Below, one piece after another: positions 15,036-27,996 of a DNA stretch of 32,000 nucleotides. The notes beneath the pieces are model-generated. The model did not search any database. It was not told the origin of the DNA and saw only the letters and a list, made by a program, of their open reading frames with translations. The DNA comes from Haloferax volcanii DS2. Lineage in GTDB: Archaea > Halobacteriota > Halobacteria > Halobacteriales > Haloferacaceae. The stretch spans positions 330,001-362,000 of the forward strand of contig NC_013964.1 in assembly GCF_000025685.1 (NCBI RefSeq). Direction: 5' to 3'. Position 1 is the first letter of the stretch; every line of letters starts with the position of its first letter. Made by a program: the position numbers and the translations under genes.

Positions 15036-15437
15036 CTACCGCCCGTCGAACGCCTCGGGCGACAGGTCGAGTCCCGCGCGCTCCTCGTCGGTGAGGTCTT
15101 CGAGGACGCTCGTGCCGGACCCCGGTTTCGAGTCCCACGACCAGTCCTCGTGAAGGCGGAGGCGGCCGTCTTCCAGTCGCTCGATGCGGTCCGTCGAGTG
15201 GCCGGTCGCAGTCGTCCCGTCGTCGGTGACGTGAGAGTACCGGAAGTCGAGCGTGTCGCCGCGGTGGCGGCCGACGAGGTGGCCCAGCCTGACGGTTCCG
15301 CCGCGGTACGCCGCGTGAATCAGGTCGCCGGACTGGTCGAACCAGAAGTGGGTGTCGCCGCCGACGTCGCCGCTCTCGGCGTTGGCGACCGATTTGAAGA
15401 CGCGCCCGTCGAGGGACGGCGCGTGAGATTCGGACAT
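15036..15437 (-). CDS. Hypothetical protein (133 aa)
   Basis: An internal ATG gives MSESHAPSLDGRVFKSV..., with good GC3 bias and an acidic composition. The upstream part of the 168-aa ORF is Arg-rich and looks non-coding. I do not recognise a confident family. Confidence 0.6.
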   Translation of the reverse strand: MSESHAPSLDGRVFKSVANAESGDVGGDTHFWFDQSGDLIHAAYRGGTVRLGHLVGRHRGDTLDFRYSHVTDDGTTATGHSTDRIERLEDGRLRLHEDWSWDSKPGSGTSVLEDLTDEERAGLDLSPEAFDGR

Positions 15438-15548
15438 AGTCCGTGTGCGAGGCGGACCGTTATGAGTGGTCCGCCGAGAACTGCGAGCGGCCGACTTCCC
15501 CCGGTCGACCGCCCGTCGCGGCCCCTGCACCACCACTACCACCAGCGG

Positions 15549-16326: not shown

Positions 16327-16677
16327 TCAGCTTCCCCGGTAGGTCGTGTAGCTCCCCGGCGACAGCAACAGGGGAACGTGATAGTGCTCGTTGGCGTCGT
16401 CGACGACGAACCGGACCGGAACCGTCTCCAAGAACGACGATTCCGTGGGGCCGTCGCGGTAGTACGGGCCGACTTCGAACAGGAGTTGGTAGGTTCCGGT
16501 CTCCATCGCGTCGCCCGACAAAAGCGGTTCGTCGACCCGTCCGTCGTCGTTGGTCGTGCCGCGGCCGACCGTCTCCGCCTCGCCGGACGAATCCAGTTTT
16601 TGAAGCGTCACGTCGACGCCGGCCGCCGGTCCCTCGCTGCTGGTGTCGAGGACGTGCGTGGTTACTCCTTCGCTCAT
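16327..16677 (-). CDS. uraH: 5-hydroxyisourate hydrolase (transthyretin-like)
   Basis: 116 aa. It begins ...THVLDTS..G.PAAGV and ends with the diagnostic C-terminal tetrapeptide YRGS. An HYHVPLLLSP motif is present. Confidence 0.9.
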   Translation of the reverse strand: MSEGVTTHVLDTSSEGPAAGVDVTLQKLDSSGEAETVGRGTTNDDGRVDEPLLSGDAMETGTYQLLFEVGPYYRDGPTESSFLETVPVRFVVDDANEHYHVPLLLSPGSYTTYRGS

Positions 16678-16678
16678 C

Positions 16679-17665
16679 TTACTGCTCGTCGAGGTCGCCG
16701 CGGTCCATCGAGAACTGCTGGAAGCCGGTCGGCGCGGGCGGCTCCCGCAGGACGCTGGCGTCGCCGTCGAGGTCGTCGCGGACGCTGAGCCAGGTGCGGT
16801 TGTTCGCCTCGAACCGAACGGACGCGAGCTGCGGATAGCGTTCGAGGACGCGCAGGCCGATTTGGTAGATGAGGTCCTGAATCGAGTTCGAGTCGACCTC
16901 GTCGAAGACGACGTGGGCGATGTCGCGGACCTGCTCGGACGGCACGTACCGTTCGGGGTCCTCGCCGAGCGCGTCTTCGGGGTCGTCGTAGCTCCAGAAG
17001 ATATCGAGCGAGATGTAGAGCGTTCGGTCCTCGCGCTCCGGGAGCGTCGTGTACTCGTCTTGGACGTAGCCGGTGAACGAACTCCCCTCGACCTTGACCA
17101 GTTCGAGGCCGGTGACGCCGCTCGTCTGGTCGGTGATGACGGGTGTGCCGTCGTCTCGCGTCAGCGAGATGGAGCCGTAGCCGGACTCGTTGTCGGAGAC
17201 GCGGAAGACGAGGTCGCTCGCCTCGTACCCGTCGCCGTCGTCCTCTGGGACGGGCAGTTCGTCGAATCGAATCTCGTCGGCCGACACCTCGACGGCGCTC
17301 ATCTGCGAGTAGGTGTCCAAGAACCCCGACCCGACGAACTCCAAGAAGCCTTCGAGGGTGGCCCCGTCGTACTCGCCGGCGTGGTGGAGGATGAAGTTCT
17401 TCATCGAGTCCGTCGCCACGACCTTCGTGTTGTCGCCCTCGCTGAACGACGGCAGGAACTCCTCGCCTTCGACCTGCACGCGAACGTCGAGGCCGAACAG
17501 CACGTTGTCCCGCCCGTCGAACGACGACTCCGGAATCGTGCGAACGCCCTCCAGCGGGGTCGCGTACGTCCGGTAGACGGCGACGTTCTCCTTCCCGTAG
17601 TTCATCGTCCGCTGTTCGCCGCTGTCCGGGGCGTCACCGTCCACCGGTGACTGTTGCGCTGTCAT
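16679..17665 (-). CDS. uox: Urate oxidase (cofactor-independent uricase)
   Basis: It has YGKENVAVYRT near the N-terminus and NTKVVATDSMKNFI (uricase signature region), consistent with a tandem T-fold. The stop is 1 nt before the uraH start. The start may instead be the internal ATG (MNYGKENV) at 17605. Confidence 0.85.
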   Translation of the reverse strand: MTAQQSPVDGDAPDSGEQRTMNYGKENVAVYRTYATPLEGVRTIPESSFDGRDNVLFGLDVRVQVEGEEFLPSFSEGDNTKVVATDSMKNFILHHAGEYDGATLEGFLEFVGSGFLDTYSQMSAVEVSADEIRFDELPVPEDDGDGYEASDLVFRVSDNESGYGSISLTRDDGTPVITDQTSGVTGLELVKVEGSSFTGYVQDEYTTLPEREDRTLYISLDIFWSYDDPEDALGEDPERYVPSEQVRDIAHVVFDEVDSNSIQDLIYQIGLRVLERYPQLASVRFEANNRTWLSVRDDLDGDASVLREPPAPTGFQQFSMDRGDLDEQ

Positions 17666-17762: not shown

Positions 17763-18269
17763 CTATTCTGACGAGAACCGCTCCGCCAACCGGAGTTCCG
17801 CAATCGTGTGGACCTCGTCCAGCGCGGTCCGAAACTCCGTCGACTCCGAGTGGTCGACCCGGCGTTCCATCGCCGCGGCAATCGCGTCGGGGTTCTCGTC
17901 TTTCACCGCCATGACGAACGGGAAGCCGAACCGCTCGCGGTACGTCTCGTTCAGTCGTTGGAACGTCTCGTACTGGCTCCGCGAGAGCGAGTCCAGCTCG
18001 GCCGACGCCTGTTCCGCCTCCGAGGCGTCGGTCATCTCGGTCCGCTCTCCGAGGTCGGGGTGCGCCCGGAGCAACTGGAGTTGCTTCTCGCGCGACGCGT
18101 CCTCGACGGCGCGCTTCATGGCCGACCGGAGTTCGTCCACGGACGAAAACGGTCGCGACGACCGCGCCCGCTCGGCGACCCACGGCGAGTGTTCGTATAT
18201 CTCCCCGAACGCGTCCACGAACGAGTCGTCGTCGAGGCGGTTCACCTGCTGGAGCGTGAGTTCGTGCAT
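17763..18269 (-). CDS. uraD: 2-oxo-4-hydroxy-4-carboxy-5-ureidoimidazoline (OHCU) decarboxylase
   Basis: The 168-aa C-terminal part of the long track ORF, starting at MHELTLQQVN. It contains FGEIYEHSPWVAE, LLRAHPDLG and FGFPFVMAV, which are typical of the OHCU decarboxylase family. The N-terminal approximately 395 aa of track ORF 17763..19457 is an Arg/Gly-rich artefact antisense-frame to the amidohydrolase. Confidence 0.85.
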   Translation of the reverse strand: MHELTLQQVNRLDDDSFVDAFGEIYEHSPWVAERARSSRPFSSVDELRSAMKRAVEDASREKQLQLLRAHPDLGERTEMTDASEAEQASAELDSLSRSQYETFQRLNETYRERFGFPFVMAVKDENPDAIAAAMERRVDHSESTEFRTALDEVHTIAELRLAERFSSE

Positions 18270-18352: not shown

Positions 18353-19735
18353 TCACGCGCTCCAATCGGGGCGCTCGCGCTCCACGAACCGGCCGTGGCC
18401 GGGGTCGCCGACGACCTCGCCGTCGGCCGCGACGACCTCGCCGCGGACGAGCGTCTTCGTCACCCGGCCCGTGACTTCCCGGCCCTCGTAAATCGAGTAG
18501 TCCGCCTTCGAGGCGTTCGCGTCGGCGGAAATCGTGTACGTCTCGTCGGGGTCGAACAGGACGATATCGGCGTCGGTTCCGGGTTCGAGCGTGCCCTTGT
18601 TCGGGAGGCCGAACGTCTCGGCCGGGTTCGAACACATCACGCGGACGAGGAACGGGTACGAGAGCCCGCGCTCGTTGACCGCCTCGTCGTGGAACACCGG
18701 GAGGCTGACCTGCACGCCGTTCGCGCCGAACGGGCCCTCCCACCACGGCCGGTCGACCTTGTCGGCGCGCTTCGAGGCGACGTGGTCCGTCGAGACGACG
18801 CTCAGCACGCCGCGGCGGAGGTATTCGAACATCGCCTCCACGTCGTCTTCCTTGCGGATGGGCGGCGCGATTTTCGGCAGGTTCCCCAGTTCCGCGTAGA
18901 CGGAGTCGTCGAGCGTCGTGTAGTGCGTGCAGGTCTCCGCCCTGACCCGCGACCCGTCCTCGCGGTGGCGGGCGAGCGCGTCGGCGGCCGCCCGGCACGT
19001 CGTGTGGATGCCGTAGTATTTCGCCCCGGCCTCGGTCGCGAGCGTGACCGCGTCGGACGCGGCCATCGCCTCGGCGTAGTCGGGGCGAGACTGCGGGTAC
19101 GTCTCGGGGGCGTCCTCGCCAGCGGCCCGGAGTTCGGCGGTGAGCGCCCGGCAGACCGAGTCGTCTTCGCTGTGGACCACGCCGACCGCGTCGTGTTCGG
19201 CGAGGCGGTCGAACACCCGCTTGAGAAAGCCGTTCGAGACGCCGAACTCGTAGGCGGTGTACATCTTGAACGAGGTCACGCCGTCGTCGACGAGCACCGG
19301 AATCTCCTCGAAGACCGCGTCGTCCTCCCTGAGAATCCCGCCGTGTAATCCGAAGTCGACGAGCGACTGTTCCTGTTGGTCGCGTTTGCGTTCGAGGCCC
19401 TCCGAAAGGGTCGCCGGCTCGTCCCACGGACTGTCCGCGCCCTCGTAGGCCTGCCACGCGAAGTCGATGAACGTGGTGACCCCGCCGAGCGCCGCCGCGC
19501 TGGACACGGTTCGGTAGGTGTCGATGGAGACGTGGTCGTCGACGTGGATGTGCGGGTCGACGACGCCGGGCATGACGACCTGTCCAGTCGCGTCGATTCG
19601 GTTCCGTCCAGCGGGGAGGGCGTCCTCGTCGCCGACGCCGACGATGCGACCCTCGTCGACCGCGACCGCGGCGTCGAGCGTCCGCGAGTCGGTGACGACG
19701 GTCCCGCCGGCGAGTATCGTGTCAACAGTCATCAC
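18353..19735 (-). CDS. Cyclic amidohydrolase of the hydantoinase/dihydropyrimidinase type; putative allantoinase by context
   Basis: 460 aa. It has the metal-binding HxH (VVDPHIHV) and a carbamylated-Lys region (VTSFKMYTAY), giving an overall D-hydantoinase/DHPase-like pattern. It is located between the purine permease and uraD. Confidence 0.85.
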   Translation of the reverse strand: MMTVDTILAGGTVVTDSRTLDAAVAVDEGRIVGVGDEDALPAGRNRIDATGQVVMPGVVDPHIHVDDHVSIDTYRTVSSAAALGGVTTFIDFAWQAYEGADSPWDEPATLSEGLERKRDQQEQSLVDFGLHGGILREDDAVFEEIPVLVDDGVTSFKMYTAYEFGVSNGFLKRVFDRLAEHDAVGVVHSEDDSVCRALTAELRAAGEDAPETYPQSRPDYAEAMAASDAVTLATEAGAKYYGIHTTCRAAADALARHREDGSRVRAETCTHYTTLDDSVYAELGNLPKIAPPIRKEDDVEAMFEYLRRGVLSVVSTDHVASKRADKVDRPWWEGPFGANGVQVSLPVFHDEAVNERGLSYPFLVRVMCSNPAETFGLPNKGTLEPGTDADIVLFDPDETYTISADANASKADYSIYEGREVTGRVTKTLVRGEVVAADGEVVGDPGHGRFVERERPDWSA

Positions 19736-19818: not shown

Positions 19819-21243
19819 TCAGTCGTCGACCGGCGCGGAGGGCGACGACTCAGAACTCGACAGTTCGGTCAGGTCTTCCGGGTCGAGGCCGTCGGTGTGC
19901 TCGGTCGGGCCGAGGCCGACGCCGCCGCCGGGGAGCACGACGTTGAGCGCGAGCGCGGTGAAACCGCCGGTGACGAGCGCGGAGCCGAACAACGTCTGCA
20001 CCTCGGCAGGGAAGTTCTGGAGCACCTCGGGGCGGAACGCCACGCCGAGGCCGAACGCCATCGACAGCGCGAGAATCGTCGAGTTCCGGTGGTCGAGCGT
20101 GACGTTCTGCGTGATGATGCGCGCCCCCGAGGAGAAGATCATCGCGAAGAGGATGAGCGCGCCGCCGCCGAGGACGGCGTCGGGCATCACGGAGACGACC
20201 GCGCCGACCTTCGGGACGAAGCCGAGCACGACGAGGACGACCCCGCCGATGCCGACGACGTATCGGCTCGCGACGCCGGTGAAGCTCACGAGGCCGACGT
20301 TCTGCGAGAAAGACGTGTTGGGAAGCGCGTTGAACAGCGCGGCGAACGCGCTCATCACGGCGTCGGCGACGAGGCCGCCGCGGAACTCCTTGCGGGTCGG
20401 GTTCCGGCCGGTCGCCGACACCGTGCCGGAGATGTCGCCGATGGTTTCGAGGCCGGTGATGACGTAGAGGAACGCGACCGTGAGCACGGCACTGGGCGGG
20501 AATTCGAGGCCGAATCTGAGCGGCGTCGGCACGGTTATCCACCCCGCGGTCGCGACGGCGGTGAAGTCGACCATCCCGAGCGCGATGGCGGCGACGTAGC
20601 CGACGACGATGCCGACGAAGACGCTGATGACGCGGAGGAAGCCGTCGAAGAACTGGTTGAGAACGACCGTGACGACCAAGACGAGCCCCGCGAGGCCGAG
20701 GTTCGCAAACGAGCCGTAGCCGGCGGCCGAGGGGCCGGCGGACGCGCCCGCGGCGTAGTTCATCCCCGTCGGGATGAGCGTCAGCCCGATGAGCATCACG
20801 ACGATGCCCGTGACGAGCGGTGGGAAGTACTTCTGGAAGCGGTCGAGCGTGACGCCCATCACCAACTCGACGGGCGCGGCGAGAAGTGACGTGCCGAAAA
20901 CCGCGGCGATGCCGAACTGTTGGCCGATACCGATGAGCGGGCCGAGGAACGCGAAGCTCGTTCCCATGACGATTGGGAGTCGCGCGCCGACGGGACCGAT
21001 TGGGAAGGCCTGCACGAGCGTCGCCGCGCCGGCGACGATGAGCGCCATCTGCACGAGAAACGTCGTCTGGCCCGACACCGAACCGACGGCGCCCGCGAGG
21101 ATGAGCGGCGGCGCGACGTTGCCGAGGAACATCGCGAGGACGTGTTGGATTCCCAGCGGGACCGCCTCGCCCAGCGGCGGTCTGTCTTCGATATCGTACA
21201 GTACGACCGAGTCGCTCTCCGCATCGGCGGATGTGCTAGTCAT
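19819..21243 (-). CDS. NCS2 family nucleobase:cation symporter (xanthine/uric acid permease-like)
   Basis: It is polytopic and contains PLGIQHVLAMFLGNVAPPLIL, the NCS2 signature region. ATG at 21243 is preferred over the GTG at 21258 used by the track. Confidence 0.9.
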   Translation of the reverse strand: MTSTSADAESDSVVLYDIEDRPPLGEAVPLGIQHVLAMFLGNVAPPLILAGAVGSVSGQTTFLVQMALIVAGAATLVQAFPIGPVGARLPIVMGTSFAFLGPLIGIGQQFGIAAVFGTSLLAAPVELVMGVTLDRFQKYFPPLVTGIVVMLIGLTLIPTGMNYAAGASAGPSAAGYGSFANLGLAGLVLVVTVVLNQFFDGFLRVISVFVGIVVGYVAAIALGMVDFTAVATAGWITVPTPLRFGLEFPPSAVLTVAFLYVITGLETIGDISGTVSATGRNPTRKEFRGGLVADAVMSAFAALFNALPNTSFSQNVGLVSFTGVASRYVVGIGGVVLVVLGFVPKVGAVVSVMPDAVLGGGALILFAMIFSSGARIITQNVTLDHRNSTILALSMAFGLGVAFRPEVLQNFPAEVQTLFGSALVTGGFTALALNVVLPGGGVGLGPTEHTDGLDPEDLTELSSSESSPSAPVDD

Positions 21244-21478
21244 CAGCTCACACGACACGAGACTGGCTTTTGAAACTACCCCTTATTCACCTAATATATC
21301 TATGAATGGTGTTTTCCTTCGAGTAAGAATACACGTACAGACAGCGCTCGCTCGTCGAGCGAGACAGTCGTAGAAATCATCGAGGGAACGTATTCAATCG
21401 CGCGGCTCATCGAGGGCGCGCGCTACCGGTGCGACCGCCTGTGGCGTCCCCGCCTACGGACGGGCCGATACCGACGGT

Positions 21479-21600
21479 CGGGAGCGCGTTGAACGTCCGC
21501 TCGTCGACGAGGCCGCGCGTCGTCTCGGTGAGGGGCACGCGAGTACGAGGTAGTCGCTCCGCGCGGCGGCCGAAAGCACGTCGTGAAGGACCGCGATGTC
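21479..21600 (-). pseudogene. Remnant of a D-isomer-specific 2-hydroxyacid dehydrogenase gene (internal fragment, frameshifted, lacking the N-terminal two thirds)
   Basis: The minus strand reads DIAVLHDVLSAAARSDYLVLACP. After a 1-nt slip in a C-run at about 21532 it reads LTETTRGLVDERTFNALP. Together these match the conserved sD.v.l..PlT.eTrgl....f..l. block of the D-2-HADH NAD-binding domain. Weaker traces (VARALDEP, SLDDF) continue to about 21330. The fragment begins immediately after the DUF3830 stop codon. Confidence 0.5.
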
Positions 21601-21602
21601 GG

Positions 21603-22019
21603 TCACTCCGATACCTCTCGGATGACGACGTCTTGGACGCCCTCGCGGAGCGTCAGTTCCTCGATTGCCTTCAGCTCCTCCGCCGTCGCGTCGATGGTCG
21701 CGAAGTGGTTCCCGGCGAGTTCACCGGCGGGGCTCTTGAAGCACGTCGGGCCGCAGGGGACGAGAATCTCCTGTTCGTTCCGGTAGCCGGGGTAGAGAAG
21801 CAGGTCGCCCCGCGACGGGTAGACGGTGTGGTTTTCCCGCGGAATCTCGGGGAGGTCGATTTCGTCGATGTTTATCCACGTCGCGATGCCGCTCCAGCGG
21901 ACGTGCATGAGCTCCGACTCCAACGGGAGGAACTCTCGAACCGCCTCGACGGAGGCGGGCGCGCGGTCTTCGTGCAGTTCTGCGGTGAACGTCCGGTCTC
22001 CGATTTCTAGCTGTAACAT
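21603..22019 (-). CDS. DUF3830 / cyclophilin-like-fold family protein of unknown function (138 aa)
   Basis: MLQLEIGDRTFTAELHEDRAPASVEAVREFLPLESELMHVRWSG...GDLLLYPG...GNHFATIDATAEELKAIEE. This pattern recalls DUF3830 (PF12903) members, recognised from memory. The rest of track ORF 21603..22778 is a high-GC artefact. Confidence 0.65.
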   Translation of the reverse strand: MLQLEIGDRTFTAELHEDRAPASVEAVREFLPLESELMHVRWSGIATWINIDEIDLPEIPRENHTVYPSRGDLLLYPGYRNEQEILVPCGPTCFKSPAGELAGNHFATIDATAEELKAIEELTLREGVQDVVIREVSE

Positions 22020-22045
22020 GGGTGTAGTGGCTCGTGTGATGGTGG

Positions 22046-23365
22046 TTAGTTTCGTTCGGTGTCGTCCGTCTCGGTGTCGTCCGTCGTCGCCAGTCTGGCG
22101 AGCGTCCCCGCGAGCACTTCGGTCGCGGCGGTGCAGTCGGCCCAGTCGGCCCGCTCTCTCGGTGAGTGCGAGTGGCCGTTCTCGGAGGCGACGAACACGA
22201 GCGCGGCGTCGGTCACGTCGGCGACCTGCATCGTGTCGTGGCCCGCGCCCGAGTGGAGCGACAGCGTCTCGATGTCGCACGCGCGGGACGCCTCGGTCGC
22301 GACCCGCCGACAGCGCTCCGACAGCGGCGTCGGCGGAACGTCGTAGGTGCAGTCGAACGAAGTCGTCACGCCGCGGTGGGTCTCGACCGCGTCGAGCGCC
22401 CGTTCGACCGCGTCCAACTGGAGGCGTATCTCCTCGCGGTCGACCGACCGGAGGTCGAGGCGGAGCGAGGCCGCACCGGGGACGACGTTGACGACGTTCG
22501 GTTCGACGTCGAGTTCGCCGACGGTGCCGACGGCGGTGCCGCTGCCGGTCGTCGCGATGTCCGCGGCGCGCCGCTCGACCTCCAAGACGAGTTCGCTCGC
22601 GGCCGCGAGCGCATCGTGGCGCGCCGTCATCTCGGTCGTCCCCGAGTGGTCGGCCTGCCCCTCGATAGACACGTGACACCGCGCGGTTCCGGTGATGTCG
22701 GTGACGATACCGAGAGGGACGCCGGCGTCTCCGAGGCGCGTGTTCTGTTCGATGTGGAGTTCGACCCACGCGTCCCACGCGCTCGCGTCGAGGCGGCCCG
22801 AGCCGCGGTAGCCGACGCGGTCGAGGGCGTCTTCGAGCGTCACGTCGCCGTCCGTCAGCGCGAGCGTCTCGTCGACGCCGCGTTTCCCGGCGGCGACCGT
22901 CGACCCGAGGACGCCGTCAGCGAAGCGCGTCCCCTCCTCGCCGGTGAAGCAGACGACTTCGAGCGGGCGAGCGGGCGTCAGGTCGCTCTCGCGGATACTT
23001 CGGACGGCCTCCACGGCGGCGTAGACCCCGAGCGGTCCGTCGAAGATGCCGCCGTTCGGAACCGAATCGAGGTGGCTCCCGGCGGCGACCGGGGCCGCAT
23101 CCGGGTCGACGCCGTCCGGGGTCCACCGACCGGCGATGTTGCCGACGGCGTCGATACGGACGTCGAGACCGACCGCTTCGAGGCGGCTCACGAGGTAATC
23201 GCGGGCCCGCCCGTTCGCCGCGTCGGCGGGGAGCGCGGTCCGACCGCGCCCGTGTTCGGTGTCTACCGAGCCGAATACCGCCGTTCGCTCGATGTCCTCG
23301 CGGAAAGAGTCGCCGTCGATGTCGAACGAAACGCGACCCGCACTGCCGCGAGTCGGGGCCGTCAC
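22046..23365 (-). CDS. allC: M20-family Zn hydrolase of the allantoate amidohydrolase / N-carbamoyl-L-amino-acid hydrolase (AllC/AmaB) group
   Basis: 439 aa. It contains IDAVGNIAGRW, AGSHLDSVPNGGIFDGPLGV, FTGEEGTRF and a C-terminal SGAGHD, which are typical of AllC/AmaB. The start is GTG at 23365, and an in-frame TGA lies 3 codons upstream. Confidence 0.85.
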   Translation of the reverse strand: MTAPTRGSAGRVSFDIDGDSFREDIERTAVFGSVDTEHGRGRTALPADAANGRARDYLVSRLEAVGLDVRIDAVGNIAGRWTPDGVDPDAAPVAAGSHLDSVPNGGIFDGPLGVYAAVEAVRSIRESDLTPARPLEVVCFTGEEGTRFADGVLGSTVAAGKRGVDETLALTDGDVTLEDALDRVGYRGSGRLDASAWDAWVELHIEQNTRLGDAGVPLGIVTDITGTARCHVSIEGQADHSGTTEMTARHDALAAASELVLEVERRAADIATTGSGTAVGTVGELDVEPNVVNVVPGAASLRLDLRSVDREEIRLQLDAVERALDAVETHRGVTTSFDCTYDVPPTPLSERCRRVATEASRACDIETLSLHSGAGHDTMQVADVTDAALVFVASENGHSHSPRERADWADCTAATEVLAGTLARLATTDDTETDDTERN

Positions 23366-23655
23366 GGTCCCCCGTCACGACGACCGCTGCGCCGTCGATT
23401 CCGCCGCCGGGTGGCACCGTGTCGCGGCGAGGCAGGAACGTCCGCGACCGAACCGCCGCCCGTCCCCGTCGTCCGGAGCCGGCGGTCGGCGGCTGTCGGC
23501 TTCGGTCTGAAAGGTATCATTGCGTACTTACCCCGAGAGTAACACCACTTGTTGATAAACATTTCGTGAGATGGCGATTTGGTGGCCAGAATACTCGATG
23601 TTTTTCAAATTTAGTGAATACATACACAGTTCCAACCGGAGGGCCGGATTAGAAT

Positions 23656-23673
23656 GTTCGACTATTTCAAACG
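23656..23673 (+). repeat. Copy 1 of a perfect 18-bp direct repeat GTTCGACTATTTCAAACG
   Basis: Read directly. The second, identical copy is 373 bp downstream. Both lie in the 880-bp divergent spacer between allC and the xanthine dehydrogenase operon. Confidence 0.9.
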
Positions 23674-23905
23674 CCGACGAGACAAGTGCGTCCGACAACC
23701 GCCCACACGACCAGCTCGAACCCGATTACTCATCCCGTCCGAGCGAGACATCGAGCGCGCTCGACGAAAGTGGGGTGATACCGCTCCGTTAGCCACCGCC
23801 GAGCGACGGTGGTTACCTCGGCTCGTCCAAGATGCTCGAACGCGCGACGGGGGACAGCGACACCACGGCGTGCGCTCCCGTCCTTGGGTGAACTCCTCGC
23901 GATGG

Positions 23906-23927
23906 ATTACAAATTTACGGTTGTAAT
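23906..23927. repeat. Inverted repeat ATTACAA-N8-TTGTAAT in the divergent spacer
   Basis: Read directly: gATTACAAatttacggTTGTAATttc. It lies in the most AT-rich part of the spacer. Confidence 0.7.
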
Positions 23928-24028
23928 TTCCTATTCCAGACGCACGACCCCCGTGATGACAAACGGTATCGTGTCTCTCGCGAGCCGCGAGCGGTCGCCA
24001 CAGCGCGCTCGAACCTCCCGCGGAACGC

Positions 24029-24046
24029 GTTCGACTATTTCAAACG
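24029..24046 (+). repeat. Copy 2 of the perfect 18-bp direct repeat GTTCGACTATTTCAAACG
   Basis: Read directly. In this copy TTCGAC is followed 16 nt later by GTCGAA, forming a short hairpin or dyad. Confidence 0.9.
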
Positions 24047-24210
24047 GGAGCGTCGAATCGGGAATCAGGCGGGGTCGGTGCGAGGCGGGGTGAGGCTGGG
24101 GAGACGACGAACGAAACGACCACACCGGCGACATCGAGACCGCTCCCGAAGACCGCGCTCGTGAACCGGACAATCGAGGGAATGCTGGCACAATTATGCC
24201 CCCTACCAGA

Positions 24211-24220
24211 ATATTTAATT
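24211..24220 (+). promoter_or_regulatory. Putative TATA-like box (ATATTTAATT) for the xanthine dehydrogenase operon
   Basis: This AT-rich element is centred about 32 nt upstream of the ATG at 24247. That position fits a leaderless or very short-leader haloarchaeal transcript. Confidence 0.35.
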
Positions 24221-24246
24221 GCGTATAGGAGCGGATATATTCAAGA

Positions 24247-24765
24247 ATGATTCAAGATAGCACGTCAACTACCGTAGTCCGAGCGAGCGTGAACGGTGAA
24301 GACGAACAGTTCGCCGTCTCGTCCGGCGAGACGCTCATGGAGACGCTCCGCGGGGCGGGGTACTACGGCGTCAAAAACGGCTGTGACGAGGGCGTTTGCG
24401 GGGCATGCAACGTCATCCTCGGCGACGAGGGAGTCACCCGGTCGTGTCTCGTGCCGGCGGCGAGTTGCGACGGAGCGGAGGTGATGACCGTCGAGGGACT
24501 GGCCGACGACGACGGCGGCCTCCACCCCCTTCAGTCGGCGTTCCTCGAACACGGGGCCGCCCAATGTAGCTACTGCATCCCCGGCGTACTGCTCGCCTCG
24601 TACGACCTCCTCCAGCGGAACGACGAGCCGACCGAGAGCGAGGTCGCAGACGGGCTGAGCGGCAACATCTGTCGCTGTACGGGCTACGTCCAGCAAATAG
24701 AGGCGGTGCAAGCGGCGGCCGACCGCCTCTCCGGGTCGGACGCGTCGTCCGAGGGCTCCGGGTAA
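24247..24765 (+). CDS. Xanthine dehydrogenase family (2Fe-2S)-binding small subunit
   Basis: It has both [2Fe-2S] cysteine clusters: GCDEGVCGACNV...C (plant-type) and QCSYCIPG...CRCTGY. Confidence 0.95.
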   Translation: MIQDSTSTTVVRASVNGEDEQFAVSSGETLMETLRGAGYYGVKNGCDEGVCGACNVILGDEGVTRSCLVPAASCDGAEVMTVEGLADDDGGLHPLQSAFLEHGAAQCSYCIPGVLLASYDLLQRNDEPTESEVADGLSGNICRCTGYVQQIEAVQAAADRLSGSDASSEGSG

Positions 24766-24766
24766 G

Positions 24767-27130
24767 ATGCCTCGGTCCGACACCGGCGACCCCGAGACGG
24801 CGGCGAAGTCGACCAGCGAGGCGCGCGGAGACGACGCCCCCGTCGGCGAGAGCGTCGAGAAAGTCGACGGCTGGGGGCTCGTCACCGGCAAGGCACGCTA
24901 CACCGACGACGTGCCGACCGACGACGCCCTCGCCGCGAAGGTGCTTCGGAGCCCGCACGCGCACGCTCGCGTTCGGTCTATCGACACCGAGGCCGCGGAA
25001 ACGATAGCCGGCGTGAAGGCGGTGCTCACCCACGAGGACGTTCCCGAGGACCGCTTCACGCGAACCGGTTTTCCCTACCCGGCCCCGGCCCCGTTCGACG
25101 AGCGCGTCCTGAACGAGACGGTCCGGTTCGTCGGCGAGCCGGTGGCCGCCGTCGCCGCGCGAACCGCCGAGGCCGCCGCGGCCGCGGTCGACGCCATCGA
25201 GGTCGACTACGAGCCGTACGACCACGTCCTCGACGCGCACGAGGCGATGGGGGCGGACGCGCCGACGCTCCACCCTGAGCCGTACGAGAACCCTCAAGAG
25301 AACGCGGCTCCCGAGCGGAACGTCGTCTGCGAGACCCGCCACGAGGAGGGAAACGTCGAACGCGGGTTCGAGGCGGCCGACGAGGTCGTCGAGGGGGAGT
25401 ACGAGACGCAGGCCGTCCACCACCTCCCGATGGAGACGAACACGACCATCGCGTGGGTGGACGACCGAAGGCGGCTCGTCCTGCGGACGACGACGCAGGT
25501 CTCGCACATCTGCCGCGACAAAATCGCCCGCGTGTTCGGCCTGAACCGCACCGACGTTCGAGTCGTCAAGCCCCGCGTCGGCGGCGGCTTCGGCGTCAGA
25601 CAGGACACGCTCCCGAACCAGTTCATCGGCGCGGCACTCGCGCTCGAAACCGGCGAGAAGGTCCGGCTGAAAAACGACCGAAAGGAGGACCTCCACGGGG
25701 CGCAGACGCGCCACGCCCAGACCGTCCGCGTCAAGACCGGCGTCCGGGAGGACGGGACGCTCACGGCGATGCACGTCGACGTGACCTCGAACACGGGCGC
25801 GTACGGCTGTCACGCCTCCGCGGTGCTGATGAACGCCGCCCACGAACCGCTGTCTGTCTACCCCTGCGAGAACCGGCTGTTCACCGGGCGCGCGGTCTAC
25901 ACCAACGTCACGCCCGGCGGGGCGATGCGCGGGTACGGGGCGGTACAGGGGACGTTCGGCATCGAGAGCCACCTCGACGAGGTCGCCGCGGCCATCGGGA
26001 TGGACCCGGTCGAGTTGCGGCGGCGAAACGCGGTCGAGGAGGGCGACGAGAGCTTCGAACCGGAGTACAGCGAGAGCAAGCGAACCCTCGAATCCGTCGG
26101 CGTCAAGGAGTGTCTCGAACGCGCCTGCGAGACGCTCGGCTGGGCGGACGGCCCCGAGGAACCGGCCGACGACCGCTACCAGCGCGGGTACGGGGTCGCG
26201 CTGGCGATGGCGAAATCCGGCGTCCCGAGCAGCGAGTTTTCCCGGTGTAACATCACGCTGGAAGATGACGGGACGCTCACCGTCCGGGTCGGCGTCGGAG
26301 ACACCGGACAGGGCTCTGAGACGGTGATGGGCCAGATTGCGGCGAGCGTGTTCGGACTCGGCATCGAGTCGGTCCACGTGAAGGCCGACGACACCGACGC
26401 GACCCCGTGGGACAACGGGGCGTACGCGAGCAGTACGACCTACATCAGCGGGAACGCGACCGAGAAGGCCGCTCGCGACCTCGCGGCGAAGGTTCGCGAC
26501 CTCGCGGCCGAGTGGCGCGGAGTCGCCCCGGACGACGTGGAACTGGCCGACGGCGAGGTCCGGTTCCCCGACGGAGAGTCGATGGCCCTCGAACGGTTCG
26601 CGTCGGAGGCGTTTCAGGGGATTCACGGGCCGAAGCGGCGACTCACGGGAACCGGGAAGCACCACACTGCGCTCTCGCCCAAGCCGTTCGCGGCGCAGCT
26701 CGCGGCGGTCGAAGTGGACACCGAGACCGGCGAGTTCGAAGTGCGCCGACTCGTGAACGCCGTCGACTGCGGACGGGCGATTAATCCCGCGGGCGCTCGC
26801 GGCCAAGTCATCGGCGGCGCGGTCATGGGACTCGGACAGACGGTCTCCGAGGACCTCCCGCTGGACGACCGGGGCGCGCCGGAGTTCCGCGGGCTCCGCG
26901 ACTACGAGGTGATGCACGCGCCGGAACTCCCCGACATCGACACGGAGTTGGTCGAAACCGACGAGCCGACGGGGCCGTTCGGCGCGAAGAGCGTCGGCGA
27001 GGTCTCGATACTCGGCCCGCCCGCCGCGATTGCGAACGCGATACACGACGCCGTCGGCGTCCGGGCGACCGAACTCCCGATTACGCCCGAGACGGTGTGG
27101 ACCGCGCTCCAGGAGGACCGGGACCGATGA
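24767..27130 (+). CDS. Xanthine dehydrogenase family molybdopterin-binding large subunit
   Basis: 787 aa. It shows the aldehyde oxidase/XDH a/b hammerhead and Moco-binding domain pattern (GGGFG in VGGGFGVRQD, GAMRGYG, GQGSETVMGQIAA, and a C-terminal FGAKSVGE). It starts 1 nt after the small-subunit stop. Confidence 0.95.
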   Translation: MPRSDTGDPETAAKSTSEARGDDAPVGESVEKVDGWGLVTGKARYTDDVPTDDALAAKVLRSPHAHARVRSIDTEAAETIAGVKAVLTHEDVPEDRFTRTGFPYPAPAPFDERVLNETVRFVGEPVAAVAARTAEAAAAAVDAIEVDYEPYDHVLDAHEAMGADAPTLHPEPYENPQENAAPERNVVCETRHEEGNVERGFEAADEVVEGEYETQAVHHLPMETNTTIAWVDDRRRLVLRTTTQVSHICRDKIARVFGLNRTDVRVVKPRVGGGFGVRQDTLPNQFIGAALALETGEKVRLKNDRKEDLHGAQTRHAQTVRVKTGVREDGTLTAMHVDVTSNTGAYGCHASAVLMNAAHEPLSVYPCENRLFTGRAVYTNVTPGGAMRGYGAVQGTFGIESHLDEVAAAIGMDPVELRRRNAVEEGDESFEPEYSESKRTLESVGVKECLERACETLGWADGPEEPADDRYQRGYGVALAMAKSGVPSSEFSRCNITLEDDGTLTVRVGVGDTGQGSETVMGQIAASVFGLGIESVHVKADDTDATPWDNGAYASSTTYISGNATEKAARDLAAKVRDLAAEWRGVAPDDVELADGEVRFPDGESMALERFASEAFQGIHGPKRRLTGTGKHHTALSPKPFAAQLAAVEVDTETGEFEVRRLVNAVDCGRAINPAGARGQVIGGAVMGLGQTVSEDLPLDDRGAPEFRGLRDYEVMHAPELPDIDTELVETDEPTGPFGAKSVGEVSILGPPAAIANAIHDAVGVRATELPITPETVWTALQEDRDR

Positions 27131-27996
27131 CGGCGTTCGAGTCGGTCGAGTACGTCGAACCCGAGACCGTGTCGGAGGCGGTCGAGCGACTCGCAGACGC
27201 CGACGAGGCGCGCGTCATCGCCGGCGGATACAGCCTCGTACCCCTGCTGAAAGACGGCATCGAGACTCCCGACCGGCTGATAGACGTGAGCGGCCTCAAC
27301 GAGCTGCGCGGGATCACGGAGCGGGGCGACGGCGTCGCTATCGGCGCGCTCGTGACCCACGACGAGATTGCAACCGACGCGACCGTCGCGGAGCGCGCGC
27401 GGGCGCTGGCCGACGCGACCGATTCGGTCGGCGACTTTCAGGCGAGAAACCGCGGGACGATCGCGGGCAACCTCGTGTTTGCCGACCCGAAATACGACGC
27501 GCCGGCGGCGTTTCTCGCACTCGGCGGGAGAGTCGTCACTCTCGGGCCGGCCGGCCGGCGGGCGATAGCGGCGGACGACTGGTTCCGCGGCCCCGGAACG
27601 ACCGCGCTCGACGGGAACGAGCTCGTCACCAGAGTCGAGGTGCCGAGCGTCGAACGGAGCGGCTACGTCCGAACCTCGGAGTACTCGGGGTACGCCGTCG
27701 TCGGTGTCGCGGCCGCGTTCGAGACCGACGACGGGGTCGTGCGCTCGGCCCGAGTCGCGGTGAACGGGGCCAAGCCGTATCCGGTTCGGCTCCCGAACGT
27801 CGAACGCGCGCTCGTCGACGAGGCCGTCGGCAGGGTCGTCGACGGCGACGGTGCGACCGAGGCCGCGACCGCCGCACTCGACGACGTCGAGACGGCGTCG
27901 CTACTGGCGAACGACGCGGCGACCGAGGAGTACCGGCGACAGCTCGTCCGGACGTACTGCCGACAGGCAATCGAGCAGGCCGCTTCGGAGCCGTGA
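27127..27996 (+). CDS. Xanthine dehydrogenase family FAD-binding (medium) subunit
   Basis: MTAFESVEYVEPETVSEAVERLADADEARVIAGGYSLVPLLKDG and RNRGTIAGNL are FAD_binding_5/CO-DH flavoprotein motifs. An ATGA start/stop overlap links it to the large subunit at 27127-27130. Confidence 0.9.
   Translation: MTAFESVEYVEPETVSEAVERLADADEARVIAGGYSLVPLLKDGIETPDRLIDVSGLNELRGITERGDGVAIGALVTHDEIATDATVAERARALADATDSVGDFQARNRGTIAGNLVFADPKYDAPAAFLALGGRVVTLGPAGRRAIAADDWFRGPGTTALDGNELVTRVEVPSVERSGYVRTSEYSGYAVVGVAAAFETDDGVVRSARVAVNGAKPYPVRLPNVERALVDEAVGRVVDGDGATEAATAALDDVETASLLANDAATEEYRRQLVRTYCRQAIEQAASEP

What the first reader, a model, noticed from the sequence alone, without database searches (positions are those of the whole stretch)
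21603..22019. An uncharacterised DUF3830/cyclophilin-like gene sits immediately downstream of allC, where the ureidoglycine/ureidoglycolate steps are missing
The 138-aa ORF follows the AllC-type amidohydrolase after a 26-nt spacer on the same strand. This suggests co-transcription.

The cluster otherwise covers xanthine to allantoate to ureidoglycine. It lacks the cupin-type (S)-ureidoglycine aminohydrolase and any ureidoglycolate-processing enzyme.

A conserved small protein of unknown function in exactly this position is a guilt-by-association candidate for one of three roles:
- A non-orthologous replacement for one of those steps.
- A factor handling the labile ureidoglycine intermediate.
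- An accessory subunit of the amidohydrolase.

The family assignment is from recalled sequence patterns (AP..v..f...LP, H..wSG, GNhFATi) and is not a computed hit.
Basis: inference. Interest (0 to 1): 0.65.

Follow-up and report, generated by a model that had tools for sequence, protein, structure and literature searches.

The report
Candidate enzyme for missing ureide step
A small, uncharacterised DUF3830 gene is embedded in uric-acid/allantoin breakdown clusters from salt-loving archaea to several soil bacterial phyla, just where the usual enzymes between allantoate and glyoxylate are absent, making it a testable candidate for a published pathway gap in Haloferax volcanii.

Summary
A 138-aa ORF (21603-22019, minus strand) lies 26 nt after an M20 amidase gene and is a near full-length DUF3830 member (PF12903, E=2.9e-39). 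The window matches a Haloferax alexandrinus megaplasmid, and the protein is identical to one in H. volcanii DS2.

The guilt-by-association idea holds. Of 81 related loci (haloarchaea, Gaiellales/Thermoleophilia, Gemmatimonadales, Chloroflexota, Actinomyces), 65 carry urate/ureide genes within 10 kb. The closest and commonest partner is the M20 amidase. None has a homologue of E. coli AllE, AllA or AllD.

DUF3830 also follows pseudo-ATCase carbamoyltransferases that replace the M20. A subgroup-1 relative of these was shown to make ureidoglycine from allantoate.

H. volcanii curators list "allantoate to ureidoglycolate" as an unassigned gap and never mention this gene.

Two corrections. "AllC" is only a family-level label: the M20 scores higher to L-carbamoylase and UAH than to E. 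coli AAH. And the family is not purely ureide-linked: some paralogues sit with general hydantoinases or SDRs, and one distant pair lies near an annotated allE.

Best reading: an enzyme cleaving a C-N bond at the glyoxylate-derived carbon, most likely acting like ureidoglycine aminohydrolase. The exact reaction is unproven.

The parts
21603..22019 (-). DUF3830 (PF12903) gene, 138 aa, cyclophilin-like fold. Identical to H. volcanii ADE01618.1 / WP_004041235.1. Candidate enzyme for the allantoate-to-ureidoglycolate segment.
   Evidence: E=2.9e-39; pLDDT 83, pTM 0.81; 3KOP TM 0.78-0.81
22020..22045 (-). 26-nt spacer between the M20 stop and the DUF3830 start. No terminator-like hairpin, so co-transcription is inferred.
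   Evidence: In orthologous loci the two genes overlap or abut.
22046..23365 (-). M20 hydantoinase/carbamoylase-family amidase (= HVO_B0306 amaB4). Its substrate is unresolved: allantoate, ureidoglycolate or both.
21259..21602 (-). 344-nt intergenic gap after DUF3830, with an AT-rich stretch just upstream of the permease start. Suggests M20-DUF3830 is a separate two-gene unit.
   Evidence: inference
19819..21258 (-). NCS2 xanthine/urate-type permease (HVO_B0303 uraA4)
   Evidence: (TIGR03173, 434.6 bits vs cut-off 414)
18353..19735 (-). Cyclic amidohydrolase, putative allantoinase (HVO_B0302). Scores about equally to D-hydantoinase and AllB models, both below cut-off.
17763..18269 (-). OHCU decarboxylase (uraD)
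   Evidence: (TIGR03164, 191.8 bits vs cut-off 96)
16679..17665 (-). Factor-independent urate hydroxylase (uricase, pucL)
16327..16677 (-). 5-hydroxyisourate hydrolase (uraH)
23366..24246 (.). 881-nt divergent intergenic region between the M20-DUF3830 unit and the XDH-like operon. No Rfam family, no convincing ORF.
24247..27996 (+). Three-subunit molybdenum hydroxylase (2Fe-2S, Mo-binding, FAD subunits), putative xanthine dehydrogenase (HVO_B0308-B0310)
28112..29831 (+). XdhC/CoxI-family maturation factor and MobA-like nucleotidyltransferase (Mo-cofactor handling)

Best explanation
The gene encodes a small, soluble, cyclophilin-fold protein that is a working part of the lower ureide pathway (allantoin to glyoxylate). 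It is made together with the M20 decarbamoylase.

I propose that it is an enzyme acting on the labile product of allantoate decarbamoylation, (S)-ureidoglycine. It would remove the amino group at the glyoxylate-derived aminal carbon (elimination of NH3, then addition of water) to give ureidoglycolate. That would make it a non-homologous functional replacement for the Mn-dependent cupin AllE/UGlyAH. The product is then either decarbamoylated by the same M20 enzyme or split to glyoxylate plus urea.

Shown:
- family membership and fold;
- conserved linkage to ureide genes across phyla;
- absence of AllE/AllA/AllD homologues from all neighbourhoods examined;
- a published genome-wide gap in H. volcanii;
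- a polar residue set that is invariant in every genomic context.

Inferred:
- that the protein is catalytic;
- the substrate and the reaction;
- co-transcription with the M20 gene;
- roles for R41 (carboxylate binding) and E62/H105 (acid-base or metal).

My confidence that the gene works in the allantoate-to-glyoxylate segment is about 0.85. My confidence in the ureidoglycine-aminohydrolase-like reaction specifically is about 0.45, which is the value given below.
For: (a) Neighbourhoods. 65/81 loci carry urate/ureide genes within 10 kb. An M20 gene lies within 300 nt in 26 loci and within 3 kb in 44. AllB lies within 300 nt in 19, and PuuD within 300 nt in 29. At least four different gene orders occur across Halobacteria, Gemmatimonadales, Limnocylindria/Chloroflexota, Gaiellales/Thermoleophilia and Actinomycetales.

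(b) Missing canonical enzymes. E. coli AllB and AllC detect about 33 and about 52 full-length homologues in these loci. AllE, AllA and AllD detect none.

(c) True AAH operons. In 11 operons of the form DUF3830-AllB-M20, the M20 is closest to E. coli AllC. Nine are clear (278-294 bits, 37-41% identity) and two are marginal. These operons should make ureidoglycine, and DUF3830 is their only unassigned gene.

(d) Carbamoyltransferase contexts. In Actinomyces the M20 is replaced by a pseudo-ATCase carbamoyltransferase plus carbamate kinase; the Austwickia-like locus has the carbamoyltransferase, the kinase and also an M20. In both, DUF3830 stays adjacent and gcl, glxR and hyi lie in the same cluster. 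A related pseudo-ATCase was shown experimentally to convert allantoate to ureidoglycine (PMC4016543). The metabolite common to the M20 and carbamoyltransferase contexts is therefore ureidoglycine.

(e) Colinear haloarchaeal operons. Halorubrum lacusprofundi and Halarchaeum have amidohydrolase, M20, DUF3830, D-2-hydroxyacid dehydrogenase in that order. In Halorubrum all three junctions overlap by 4-7 nt. A convergent FAH-family gene follows. Natrinema is similar.

(f) Published gap. [quoted passage not shown]

(g) Conserved residues. R41, W42, S43, W48, E62, N63, T65, Y76, E84, S96, N104 and H105 are conserved in every context. This looks like an active or ligand-binding site rather than a protein-protein interface.

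(h) Structural neighbours. The nearest characterised ones are the cyclophilin-like domains of the Pictet-Spenglerases McbB and KslB, which bind small molecules.
Against: - There is no biochemical or genetic evidence, and no paper in the library mentions DUF3830 or PF12903.
- This window's M20 is not clearly an allantoate amidohydrolase. If it is a ureidoglycolate hydrolase, as the curators assume, the missing activity could equally be allantoicase-like.
- A distant tandem DUF3830 pair in Paracoccus (33% identity) lies 1.5 kb from an annotated cupin allE plus an M20 gene. Rhizobium johnstonii has both a DUF3830 and a cupin allantoicase/UGlyAH on different replicons. There is therefore no strict complementarity at family level.
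- Proteobacterial and some haloarchaeal paralogues sit with a genuine dihydropyrimidinase/hydantoinase, ATP-dependent hydantoinases or SDRs, where no ureidoglycine is expected. Yet they keep the same conserved residues.
- If DUF3830 does only the UGlyAH step, a ureidoglycolate-cleaving step is still unassigned in most clusters.
- The carbamoyltransferases next to DUF3830 carry the subgroup-2 motif (HTLP), not the motif of the validated subgroup 1 (HPLA).
- Xanthine was reported not to be metabolised by H. volcanii.
- The neighbourhood sample is phylogenetically clumped: about 47 loci are Gaiellales-like MAGs.
Confidence: 0.45

Rival explanations
1. Allantoicase-like enzyme. DUF3830 would split allantoate directly into ureidoglycolate plus urea, which is the same aminal C-N cleavage with urea as the leaving group. 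The M20 neighbour would be the ureidoglycolate amidohydrolase, as the H. volcanii curators annotate it.
For: The published gap is worded as 'allantoate to ureido-glycolate', with HVO_B0306 assigned EC 3.5.1.116. Haloarchaeal M20s score higher to Arabidopsis UAH (200-228 bits) than to E. coli AAH (165-186 bits). One protein would close the whole gap. DUF3830 directly follows or precedes the ring-opening amidohydrolase in many loci.
Against: In 11 operons the M20 is closest to genuine AAH, which would make an allantoicase redundant. In the carbamoyltransferase contexts, the enzyme family shown to cleave allantoate is already present. No urease or urea-handling genes were seen in the clusters.
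Confidence: 0.15
2. Ureidoglycolate-cleaving enzyme, as a lyase releasing urea or a hydrolase. Alternatively, a single enzyme that takes ureidoglycine all the way to glyoxylate + NH3 + urea. The UGlyAH step proper would then be spontaneous or done elsewhere.
For: AllA, AllD and a second M20 are all absent from the neighbourhoods. In Paracoccus a DUF3830 pair sits beside allE + M20, where only the ureidoglycolate step lacks a gene. Glyoxylate-consuming genes lie in the same cluster as DUF3830 in Actinomyces (downstream) and in the Austwickia-like locus (upstream), and a D-2-hydroxyacid dehydrogenase follows it in haloarchaea. Ureidoglycolate can also decay without an enzyme (PMC3527362), so the chemistry is easy.
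Against: This leaves the more labile and stereochemically sensitive ureidoglycine step unassigned. The Paracoccus proteins are divergent (33% identity, with R41A, N63K and S96C changes), and their M20 neighbour is 53% identical to an L-carbamoylase. Halorubrum and Halarchaeum carry an adjacent FAH-family gene that could itself be the lyase. The idea that FAH-family proteins can be ureidoglycolate lyases is from my memory and is unverified.
Confidence: 0.12
3. A non-catalytic partner. It would be an accessory or regulatory subunit, an intermediate-channelling scaffold or a ligand-binding protein for the ring-opening amidohydrolase or the decarbamoylase.
For: The protein is small (138 aa), no cofactor motif is recognisable, and neither the solved family member 3KOP nor its relatives TM1367 and AF2241 has a known activity. 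Translational coupling with M20 or amidohydrolase genes suggests matched stoichiometry. E. coli AllB is known to be activated by another pathway protein (title of PMC10163214).
Against: No single protein partner is constant. M20 is absent in Actinomyces and Paraburkholderia, AllB is absent near about 45 Gaiellales-type genes, and in some loci the neighbour is an SDR. The invariant residues are polar and catalytic-looking (R, S, E, N, T, Y, E, S, N, H) and identical across contexts with different partners.
Confidence: 0.12
4. A general enzyme of hydantoin / N-carbamoyl-compound catabolism, such as a novel decarbamoylase or an enzyme for alpha-heteroatom-substituted glycines. Its presence in purine clusters would be one application of a broader role.
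For: Paraburkholderia has racemase, true dihydropyrimidinase (763 bits), racemase and DUF3830 with no carbamoylase. Rhizobium has RidA, two amidohydrolases, a racemase and DUF3830. Azospirillum has a DHOase-family gene ending 1 nt before DUF3830. Haladaptatus has hydantoinase A/B, a racemase and an M20. The conserved residues are identical in all of these. From my own knowledge, not tested here: other cyclophilin-like families (urea carboxylase CT domain, PxpB/C, DUF1989 carboxyguanidine deiminase) act on urea-like or cyclic-amide substrates.
Against: In about 80% of the sampled loci the context is specifically urate/allantoin. M20 decarbamoylases are already present in most of them. This explanation overlaps with the main one rather than excluding it.
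Confidence: 0.1
5. An unrelated passenger gene with no role in ureide catabolism.
For: 14/81 loci have no purine gene nearby, and some contexts are unrelated (Thalassospira, L050, L063).
Against: Linkage persists through at least four rearranged architectures in two domains of life, often with overlapping stop and start codons.
Confidence: 0.03

Closest known systems
(S)-ureidoglycine aminohydrolase, UGlyAH / AllE (YlbA), EC 3.5.3.26
   Same: In E. coli, allE lies directly next to allC. DUF3830 takes the equivalent position next to the M20 or carbamoyltransferase that cleaves allantoate. Both would handle the product of allantoate decarbamoylation, and in the loci studied where one is present the other is absent.
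   Different: There is no sequence or fold relationship. AllE is a roughly 260-aa Mn-dependent bicupin (from my own knowledge: Serventi 2010, Shin 2012). DUF3830 is a 138-aa cyclophilin-like barrel. The activity of DUF3830 is untested. A distant DUF3830 pair coexists with allE in Paracoccus.
3KOP, Arthrobacter sp. FB24 'protein with a cyclophilin-like fold' (the only solved DUF3830 structure)
   Same: Same Pfam family and fold: Foldseek E=2.6e-7 with TM 0.78-0.81, and profile E=1e-10. It shares the E-N and G-N-x-F motifs.
   Different: Only 22-24% identical. It lacks the H-x-R-W-S-G motif, is longer (188 aa) and has no assigned function.
McbB / KslB bacterial Pictet-Spenglerases (cyclophilin-like domain)
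   Same: These are the closest functionally characterised structural neighbours (TM 0.69-0.78). They are small-molecule enzymes. From my own knowledge, they work through iminium chemistry between an amine and an aldehyde or 2-oxo acid using a catalytic Glu. That resembles the acyl-imine intermediate expected for ureidoglycine deamination.
   Different: About 15-19% identity, with sequence similarity not significant (E=1.8). They are roughly 300-aa proteins in natural-product pathways. Residue-level correspondence was not established.
Allantoicase (Alc) and AllA-type ureidoglycolate lyase
   Same: They catalyse the chemically analogous C-N cleavages (urea release) at the same carbon, in the same pathway segment that is unassigned here.
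   Different: They belong to unrelated families. Pfam finds only PF12903 in this protein, and AllA homologues are absent from all the loci.
Rubrobacter xylanophilus purine operon Rxyl_2840-2850 (Barba et al. 2013, PMC4016543)
   Same: It has the same set as the Austwickia-like DUF3830 locus (allantoinase, pseudo-ATCase, carbamate kinase, asparaginase), and the first three also occur in the Actinomyces locus. An 'uncharacterized/Unknown' gene, Rxyl_2846, sits between the allantoinase and the carbamoyltransferase. The authors found no AAH, UGlyAH, allantoicase or ureidoglycolate enzyme in that genome.
   Different: I could not verify that Rxyl_2846 is a DUF3830. The carbamoyltransferases next to DUF3830 in my loci belong to motif subgroup 2, not the validated subgroup 1.

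Membership tests
DUF3830 (Pfam PF12903) | Match to the family HMM above the gathering score, over most of the profile | tested here: met
   E=2.9e-39, 134.7 bits vs cut-off 26; profile positions 3-139 of 143
DUF3830 (Pfam PF12903) | Cyclophilin-like beta-barrel fold, as in the solved member 3KOP | tested here: met
   AF2 model with pLDDT 83 and pTM 0.81. Foldseek best hits are the 3KOP chains, E=2.6e-7, TM 0.78-0.81.
DUF3830 (Pfam PF12903) | Family-conserved motifs (AP...LP, RWSG, EN, GNHF) | tested here: met
   Invariant or near-invariant columns in 38 diverse members and in 92 sequences grouped by context
(S)-ureidoglycine aminohydrolase, cupin AllE/UGlyAH | Homology to AllE/YlbA (bicupin) | tested here: not met
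   Pfam and NCBIfam give no cupin or AllE hit for this protein. E. coli AllE finds nothing in the window or in 83 loci. The fold is cyclophilin-like.
(S)-ureidoglycine aminohydrolase, cupin AllE/UGlyAH | Mn2+-dependent conversion of (S)-ureidoglycine to (S)-ureidoglycolate + NH3 | not testable with these tools
   Needs an enzyme assay. This concerns 'works like', not membership.
(S)-ureidoglycine aminohydrolase, cupin AllE/UGlyAH | Gene linkage to the enzyme that produces ureidoglycine | tested here: met
   M20 within 300 nt in 26/81 loci and within 3 kb in 44/81. In 11 loci the M20 is closest to E. coli AAH. Next to a pseudo-ATCase carbamoyltransferase in L055, L075, L085 and L086.
Cyclophilin-type peptidyl-prolyl isomerase (PF00160) | Match to the Pro_isomerase family / PPIase active site | tested here: not met
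   No PF00160 hit at E<=0.01. True cyclophilins appear only at Foldseek E>=5e-3, TM about 0.55-0.6 and 11-16% identity.
   TIGR03176 217 vs 598; NF006771 370 vs 399. Only the hydantoinase/carbamoylase subfamily model TIGR01879 passes.
   3N5F L-carbamoylase 253 bits > 4PXE UAH 207 > 1Z2L AAH 167. The same ranking holds for all haloarchaeal orthologues.
Allantoicase (Alc) / ureidoglycolate lyase (AllA) | Homology to the Alc or AllA families | tested here: not met
   Only PF12903 is found. E. coli AllA has no hit in the window or the loci. Alc was tested only indirectly, through the Pfam scan.

The most novel reading that the evidence does not exclude
DUF3830 is a previously unrecognised enzyme family on a cyclophilin-like scaffold. 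It carries out the allantoate-to-ureidoglycolate-side chemistry (ureidoglycine deamination, possibly continuing to glyoxylate) without any relationship to the cupin enzymes. It would be the standard solution for this step in Halobacteria, Gaiellales/Thermoleophilia, Gemmatimonadota, Chloroflexota and many Actinomycetales (more than 7,700 proteins in one bacterial subfamily alone). It would close the published pathway gap in Haloferax volcanii and probably the one in Rubrobacter xylanophilus. Its paralogues would do the same aminal/hemiaminal C-N cleavage in other hydantoin-type pathways.
Probability: 0.4. Interest if true: 0.72.

Novelty: new variant of a known kind. Interest (0 to 1): 0.62.

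Why it matters
Purine nitrogen recycling through the ureide pathway is textbook biochemistry, and its last enzymes (UGlyAH, UAH) were only identified in 2010.

A large share of soil Actinomycetota, Chloroflexota, Gemmatimonadota and haloarchaea have complete-looking urate/allantoin clusters with no recognisable enzyme for the steps after allantoate decarbamoylation. Automated metabolic reconstructions therefore score the pathway as broken in these organisms.

Assigning DUF3830 to this gap would do four things:
- Close an explicitly published open issue in the model archaeon H. volcanii.
- Give a function to a DUF of thousands of proteins.
- Add a new catalytic use of the cyclophilin-like fold.
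- Improve nitrogen-cycle inference from metagenomes.

It is directly testable. H. volcanii genetics is available, and coupled AllC/AllD assays already exist.

Tried and rejected
- **Literature.** 'DUF3830', 'PF12903', 'cyclophilin-like' + 'ureidoglycine' and 'cyclophilin-like' + 'allantoin' gave no relevant paper. One search was mis-specified and wasted. Shin et al. 2012 (PMC3365701) is not held. The C. ljungdahlii paper and the ocean purine paper were uninformative.
- **Gene fusions as Rosetta stones.** Long family members have only domain-less N-terminal extensions, a transposase or kinase chimera, or a tandem cyclophilin-like domain. These were rejected as uninformative.
- **Rxyl_2846.** I tried to show that it is a DUF3830 by searching with an Actinomyces-type query. 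No Rubrobacter entry appeared among the 120 hits listed out of 7,703. This remains unresolved.
- **First locus scan.** The first attempt, with a 38-sequence alignment, failed for lack of a conserved stretch. A 15-sequence subset worked.
- **Obligate M20 subunit.** Rejected because of contexts that lack an M20.
- **Allantoin racemase analogue.** Rejected because Asp/Glu-type racemases coexist with DUF3830 in several clusters.
- **Allantoinase analogue.** Rejected because AllB is adjacent in 19 loci, although it is absent from Gaiellales clusters.
- **Non-coding elements.** There is no Rfam element and no terminator between the genes.
- **AllE/AllA in haloarchaeal plasmids.** tblastn against the plasmid collection showed no haloarchaeal record among the listed rows. 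The listing is incomplete and chromosomes are not covered.
Full report
**1. Observation**

The ORF lies at 21603-22019 on the minus strand. It starts with ATG, ends with TGA and encodes 138 aa. It begins 26 nt after the stop of a 439-aa gene on the same strand (22046-23365). No terminator-like structure lies in between.

That assignment is now computed: PF12903 DUF3830, E=2.9e-39, 134.7 bits against a cut-off of 26, nearly end to end. NCBIfam has no model for it. The three recalled motifs are all present.

| Strand | Genes |
|---|---|
| minus | HIUase, uricase, OHCU decarboxylase, a cyclic amidohydrolase, an NCS2 permease |
| plus | a three-subunit molybdenum hydroxylase, XdhC, a MobA-like gene |

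The rest of the window holds TFB, HTH_10 regulators, ABC transporters and similar genes. It has no cupin, AllA, AllD or FAH gene.

The window is haloarchaeal. It is 100% identical over the query to *Haloferax alexandrinus* plasmid pBNX82-1. The DUF3830 and M20 proteins are identical to *H. volcanii* DS2 proteins ADE01618.1 and ADE01306.1.

**2. The protein itself**

Orthologues in haloarchaeal genera are 70-88% identical, so this is a real gene under selection. An exhaustive profile search finds 835 clusters (at 50% identity) with E<=1e-3. One bacterial subfamily alone has 7,703 members at E<=1e-5. Every named member is 'DUF3830 family protein' or 'hypothetical'.

An AlphaFold2 model (pLDDT 83, pTM 0.81) is a cyclophilin-like barrel. 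Its Foldseek matches, in order:
- 3KOP, the uncharacterised Arthrobacter DUF3830 (TM about 0.8);
- the cyclophilin-like domains of the Pictet-Spenglerases McbB and KslB (TM 0.69-0.78);
- the uncharacterised TM1367 and AF2241;
- true PPIases, only distantly.

Across 38 diverse members the invariant columns are P21, P32, G44, E62, G71 and G127. W42, S43 and N104 are nearly invariant.

**3. Neighbourhoods**

A scan of one genome per species gave at least 593 confirmed loci, and the best 80 were kept. Adding three metagenomic haloarchaeal places (the two near-duplicates were dropped) gives 81 non-redundant loci.
- 65 have at least one urate/ureide gene within 10 kb.
- 50 have an M20 or AllB-type gene within 3 kb.
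- Restricting to loci with at least 5 kb on both sides gives 43/53 and 36/53.

Each of these is normally a single-copy gene in a genome of several Mb. Chance co-location within 10 kb should therefore be around 1% or less (inference).

De novo clustering of all neighbouring ORFs shows these conserved partners:

| Partner | Loci |
|---|---|
| M20 amidase (median distance 127 nt) | 51 |
| OHCU decarboxylase | 41 |
| 8-oxoguanine deaminase (610 bits vs cut-off 532) | 41 |
| HIUase | 39 |
| PuuD membrane cytochrome-c urate oxidase (PF06181, E=3.7e-123; immediately upstream of DUF3830) | 35 |
| AllB-type amidohydrolase | 28 |
| XDH subunits | 21-24 |
| adenine deaminase | 22 |
| BMP/ABC nucleoside uptake genes | also conserved |

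Several gene orders recur:

| Type | Lineage | Arrangement |
|---|---|---|
| a | Gemmatimonadales, Limnocylindria | HIUase divergent from DUF3830 → AllB → M20 |
| b | Gaiellales | ade → 8-oxoG deaminase → HIUase → OHCUdc → PuuD → DUF3830, with M20 convergent |
| c | haloarchaea | M20 and DUF3830 in either order, with amidohydrolase, permease, IclR and often a D-2-hydroxyacid dehydrogenase |
| d | Actinomyces; Austwickia-like (which also has an M20) | racemase, carbamate kinase, allantoin permease, AllB, pseudo-ATCase carbamoyltransferase, DUF3830, then Hyi/GlxR/Gcl |

**4. What is missing**

Reference proteins came from the annotated E. coli K-12 *all* region. In the window plus 83 loci:
- AllB finds about 33 full-length homologues.
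- AllC finds about 52.
- AllE, AllA and AllD find none.

The same AllE and AllA queries detect homologues at 26-30% identity in Rhizobium, Deinococcus and Clostridium plasmids, so sensitivity is adequate.

Now take the intersection of unassigned steps across the four architectures. Allantoinase is missing only in type b. An M20 is missing only from the Actinomyces version of type d. What remains everywhere is the stretch between allantoate decarbamoylation and glyoxylate, and the only unassigned conserved gene is DUF3830.

**5. Independent lines**

(i) In 11 type-a operons the M20 is closest to E. coli AllC, a true allantoate amidohydrolase. Nine are clear (278-294 bits, 37-41% identity) and two are marginal. 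These operons should produce ureidoglycine, and they have no AllE.

(ii) In type d the M20 is replaced (Actinomyces) or accompanied (Austwickia-like) by a pseudo-ATCase. Barba et al. showed experimentally that the R. xylanophilus pseudo-ATCase phosphorolyses allantoate to ureidoglycine plus carbamoyl phosphate. They also reported that this genome lacks allantoicase, AAH, UGlyAH and ureidoglycolate enzymes. Their operon table has an 'Unknown' gene, Rxyl_2846, between the allantoinase and the carbamoyltransferase (PMC4016543). I could not verify that Rxyl_2846 is a DUF3830. The carbamoyltransferases next to DUF3830 carry the subgroup-2 motif HTLP rather than the validated subgroup-1 HPLA.

(iii) In *Halorubrum lacusprofundi* four genes overlap stop to start by 4-7 nt: amidohydrolase, M20, DUF3830, D-2-hydroxyacid dehydrogenase. 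Halarchaeum has the same four genes in the same order. A convergent FAH-family gene follows in both. The order matches ring opening, decarbamoylation, the DUF3830 step and a 2-hydroxy/2-oxo-acid enzyme.

(iv) Pfeiffer and Dyall-Smith (2021) list HVO_B0299-B0310 as a probable but speculative purine degradation region. They assign HVO_B0306 (our M20) as ureidoglycolate hydrolase. They then write: 'only two pathway gaps remain ... [quoted passage not shown]' The small gene beside HVO_B0306 is never mentioned (PMC8305020). They also note that xanthine was not metabolised by H. volcanii.

**6. Corrections and complications**

'AllC' is a family-level label for this window's M20.
- It misses the AAH equivalog cut-offs.
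- It ranks L-carbamoylase 3N5F (253 bits) above Arabidopsis UAH (207) and E. coli AAH (167).
- All haloarchaeal and Gaiellales M20s behave the same way.
- UniProt calls the identical H. volcanii protein 'ureidoglycolate amidohydrolase'.

The haloarchaeal gap may therefore be allantoate to ureidoglycolate. That could be closed by an allantoicase-like enzyme, or by a UGlyAH-like enzyme working with an M20 that accepts both ureido substrates.

The family is not purely ureide-linked.
- *Rhizobium johnstonii* pRL10: RidA, two amidohydrolases, a racemase and DUF3830.
- Azospirillum: a DHOase-family gene ends 1 nt before DUF3830.
- Paraburkholderia: racemase, a true dihydropyrimidinase (763 bits), racemase and DUF3830, with no carbamoylase.
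- Haladaptatus, L042 and L069: an SDR immediately upstream.
- *Paracoccus pantotrophus*: two tandem, divergent DUF3830 genes 1.5 kb from an annotated allE and an M20 that is 53% identical to L-carbamoylase.
- *Rhizobium johnstonii* also has a cupin allantoicase/UGlyAH on another replicon.

Complementarity with AllE therefore holds for the purine-cluster orthologues, not for the whole family.

Even so, the polar residue set is the same in every context: R41, W42, S43, W48, E62, N63, T65, Y76, E84, S96, N104, H105. This argues for one chemistry on one class of substrate. It argues against an interface for one particular protein partner.

**7. Mechanism proposed**

The three candidate reactions share one chemistry: cleavage of a C-N bond at the glyoxylate-derived carbon that carries two heteroatoms.
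- ureidoglycine to ureidoglycolate + NH3
- allantoate to ureidoglycolate + urea
- ureidoglycolate to glyoxylate + urea

I rank the ureidoglycine reaction first (about 0.45). Ureidoglycine is the one metabolite common to the M20(AAH) and carbamoyltransferase contexts. Gene order in the compact haloarchaeal operons also fits.

| Reading | Probability |
|---|---|
| ureidoglycine aminohydrolase-like | about 0.45 |
| allantoicase-like | about 0.15 |
| ureidoglycolate-cleaving | about 0.12 |
| non-catalytic partner | about 0.12 |
| broader hydantoin-pathway role | about 0.10 |
| passenger gene | about 0.03 |

That the gene functions somewhere in the allantoate-to-glyoxylate segment I put at about 0.85.

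The roles of R41 (carboxylate binding) and E62/H105 (acid-base or metal ligands) are inference only. I could not inspect the model coordinates.

**8. Novelty**

No paper in the searchable library mentions DUF3830 or PF12903, and databases give no function. The pathway and the reactions are known. What would be new is a non-homologous enzyme family filling them in many lineages. I therefore class it as a new variant of a known kind, of moderate-to-high interest. It makes a published open annotation issue directly testable in a genetically tractable archaeon.

Noticed in passing
window 22046-23365 (-): The same M20 protein carries three incompatible names. NCBI calls it 'Zn-dependent hydrolase', UniProt and the H. 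volcanii curators call it 'ureidoglycolate amidohydrolase', and KEGG (per PMC8305020) calls it beta-ureidopropionase. By sequence it is closest to L-carbamoylase (3N5F).
   Followed up: yes
window 23366-24246: An unusually long (881 nt) divergent intergenic region lies between the M20-DUF3830 unit and the XDH-like operon. It has no Rfam hit and no convincing ORF. Other haloarchaea have an IclR regulator next to the cluster, but none is present here.
   Followed up: partly
window 15036-15542 (-): A 168-aa ORF with good coding statistics lies just beyond uraH and has no Pfam or NCBIfam hit. RefSeq annotates a shorter 'hypothetical protein' there, plus a 61-aa one. A possible further cluster member of unknown role.
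   Followed up: partly
window 21859-21876 and 21730-21756 (residues 79-81, 89, 93, 95 of the DUF3830 protein): Haloarchaeal DUF3830 proteins have a lineage-specific signature: Y79-R80-N81, C89, C93 and K95 (motif PCGPTCFK). All bacterial groups have G-x-S, Y, x, A at these positions. This may be a haloarchaeal metal or specificity site.
   Followed up: partly
L014-L082 (Gaiellales-type loci), e.g. L022 6.7-11.5 kb: The Gaiellales purine operon uses the membrane cytochrome-c urate oxidase PuuD instead of uricase. It includes an equivalog-level 8-oxoguanine deaminase and an adenine deaminase, but no allantoinase (neither AllB nor a conserved PuuE-sized gene) within 8 kb.
   Followed up: partly
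L055 8940-9935; L085 7874-8875: The carbamoyltransferases next to DUF3830 carry the STRT/HPTQ/HTLP signature, plus a G-C-S that may correspond to the paper's fourth motif (not aligned). This is the signature of Barba et al.'s uncharacterised pseudo-ATCase subgroup 2. Their context (AllB, carbamate kinase, gcl/glxR) suggests they too are allantoate/ureidoglycine carbamoyltransferases.
   Followed up: partly
L085 12458-12955 and 13361-14233: Two conserved-looking ORFs (165 and 290 aa) lie directly after the M20 gene in the Austwickia-like allantoin cluster. Neither has a Pfam or NCBIfam hit. They are further unassigned candidates in the same pathway.
   Followed up: no
L097 8220-9408; L042 9186-10408; L069 9149-10405: A second recurrent context for DUF3830: a short-chain dehydrogenase immediately upstream, with a luciferase-like monooxygenase nearby in Haladaptatus and L042. 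It is unrelated to urate genes, and the function of this subfamily is unknown.
   Followed up: partly
L094 7995-8914 and 9979-12045: Paracoccus pantotrophus has two tandem, divergent DUF3830 genes convergent on an operon with an annotated allE, an M20 that is 53% identical to L-carbamoylase, and a peptide ABC transporter. This may be a pathway for a different ureido or carbamoyl compound.
   Followed up: partly
L055 10372-11310 onwards: In Actinomyces massiliensis the DUF3830 stop overlaps the start of a split transketolase-like gene (N-terminal TPP domain) inside the allantoin/glyoxylate cluster. Its role there is unclear.
   Followed up: no
PMC6801745 (H. volcanii pHV4 genes HVO_A0293-A0306): A paralogous set in H. 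volcanii appears with high values in that paper's nitrogen-source (L-alanine vs ammonium) expression table: amaB2 amidase, pucH2/dpyS amidohydrolase, a luciferase-family protein and an ABC transporter. I did not check whether a DUF3830 paralogue belongs to that set.
   Followed up: no
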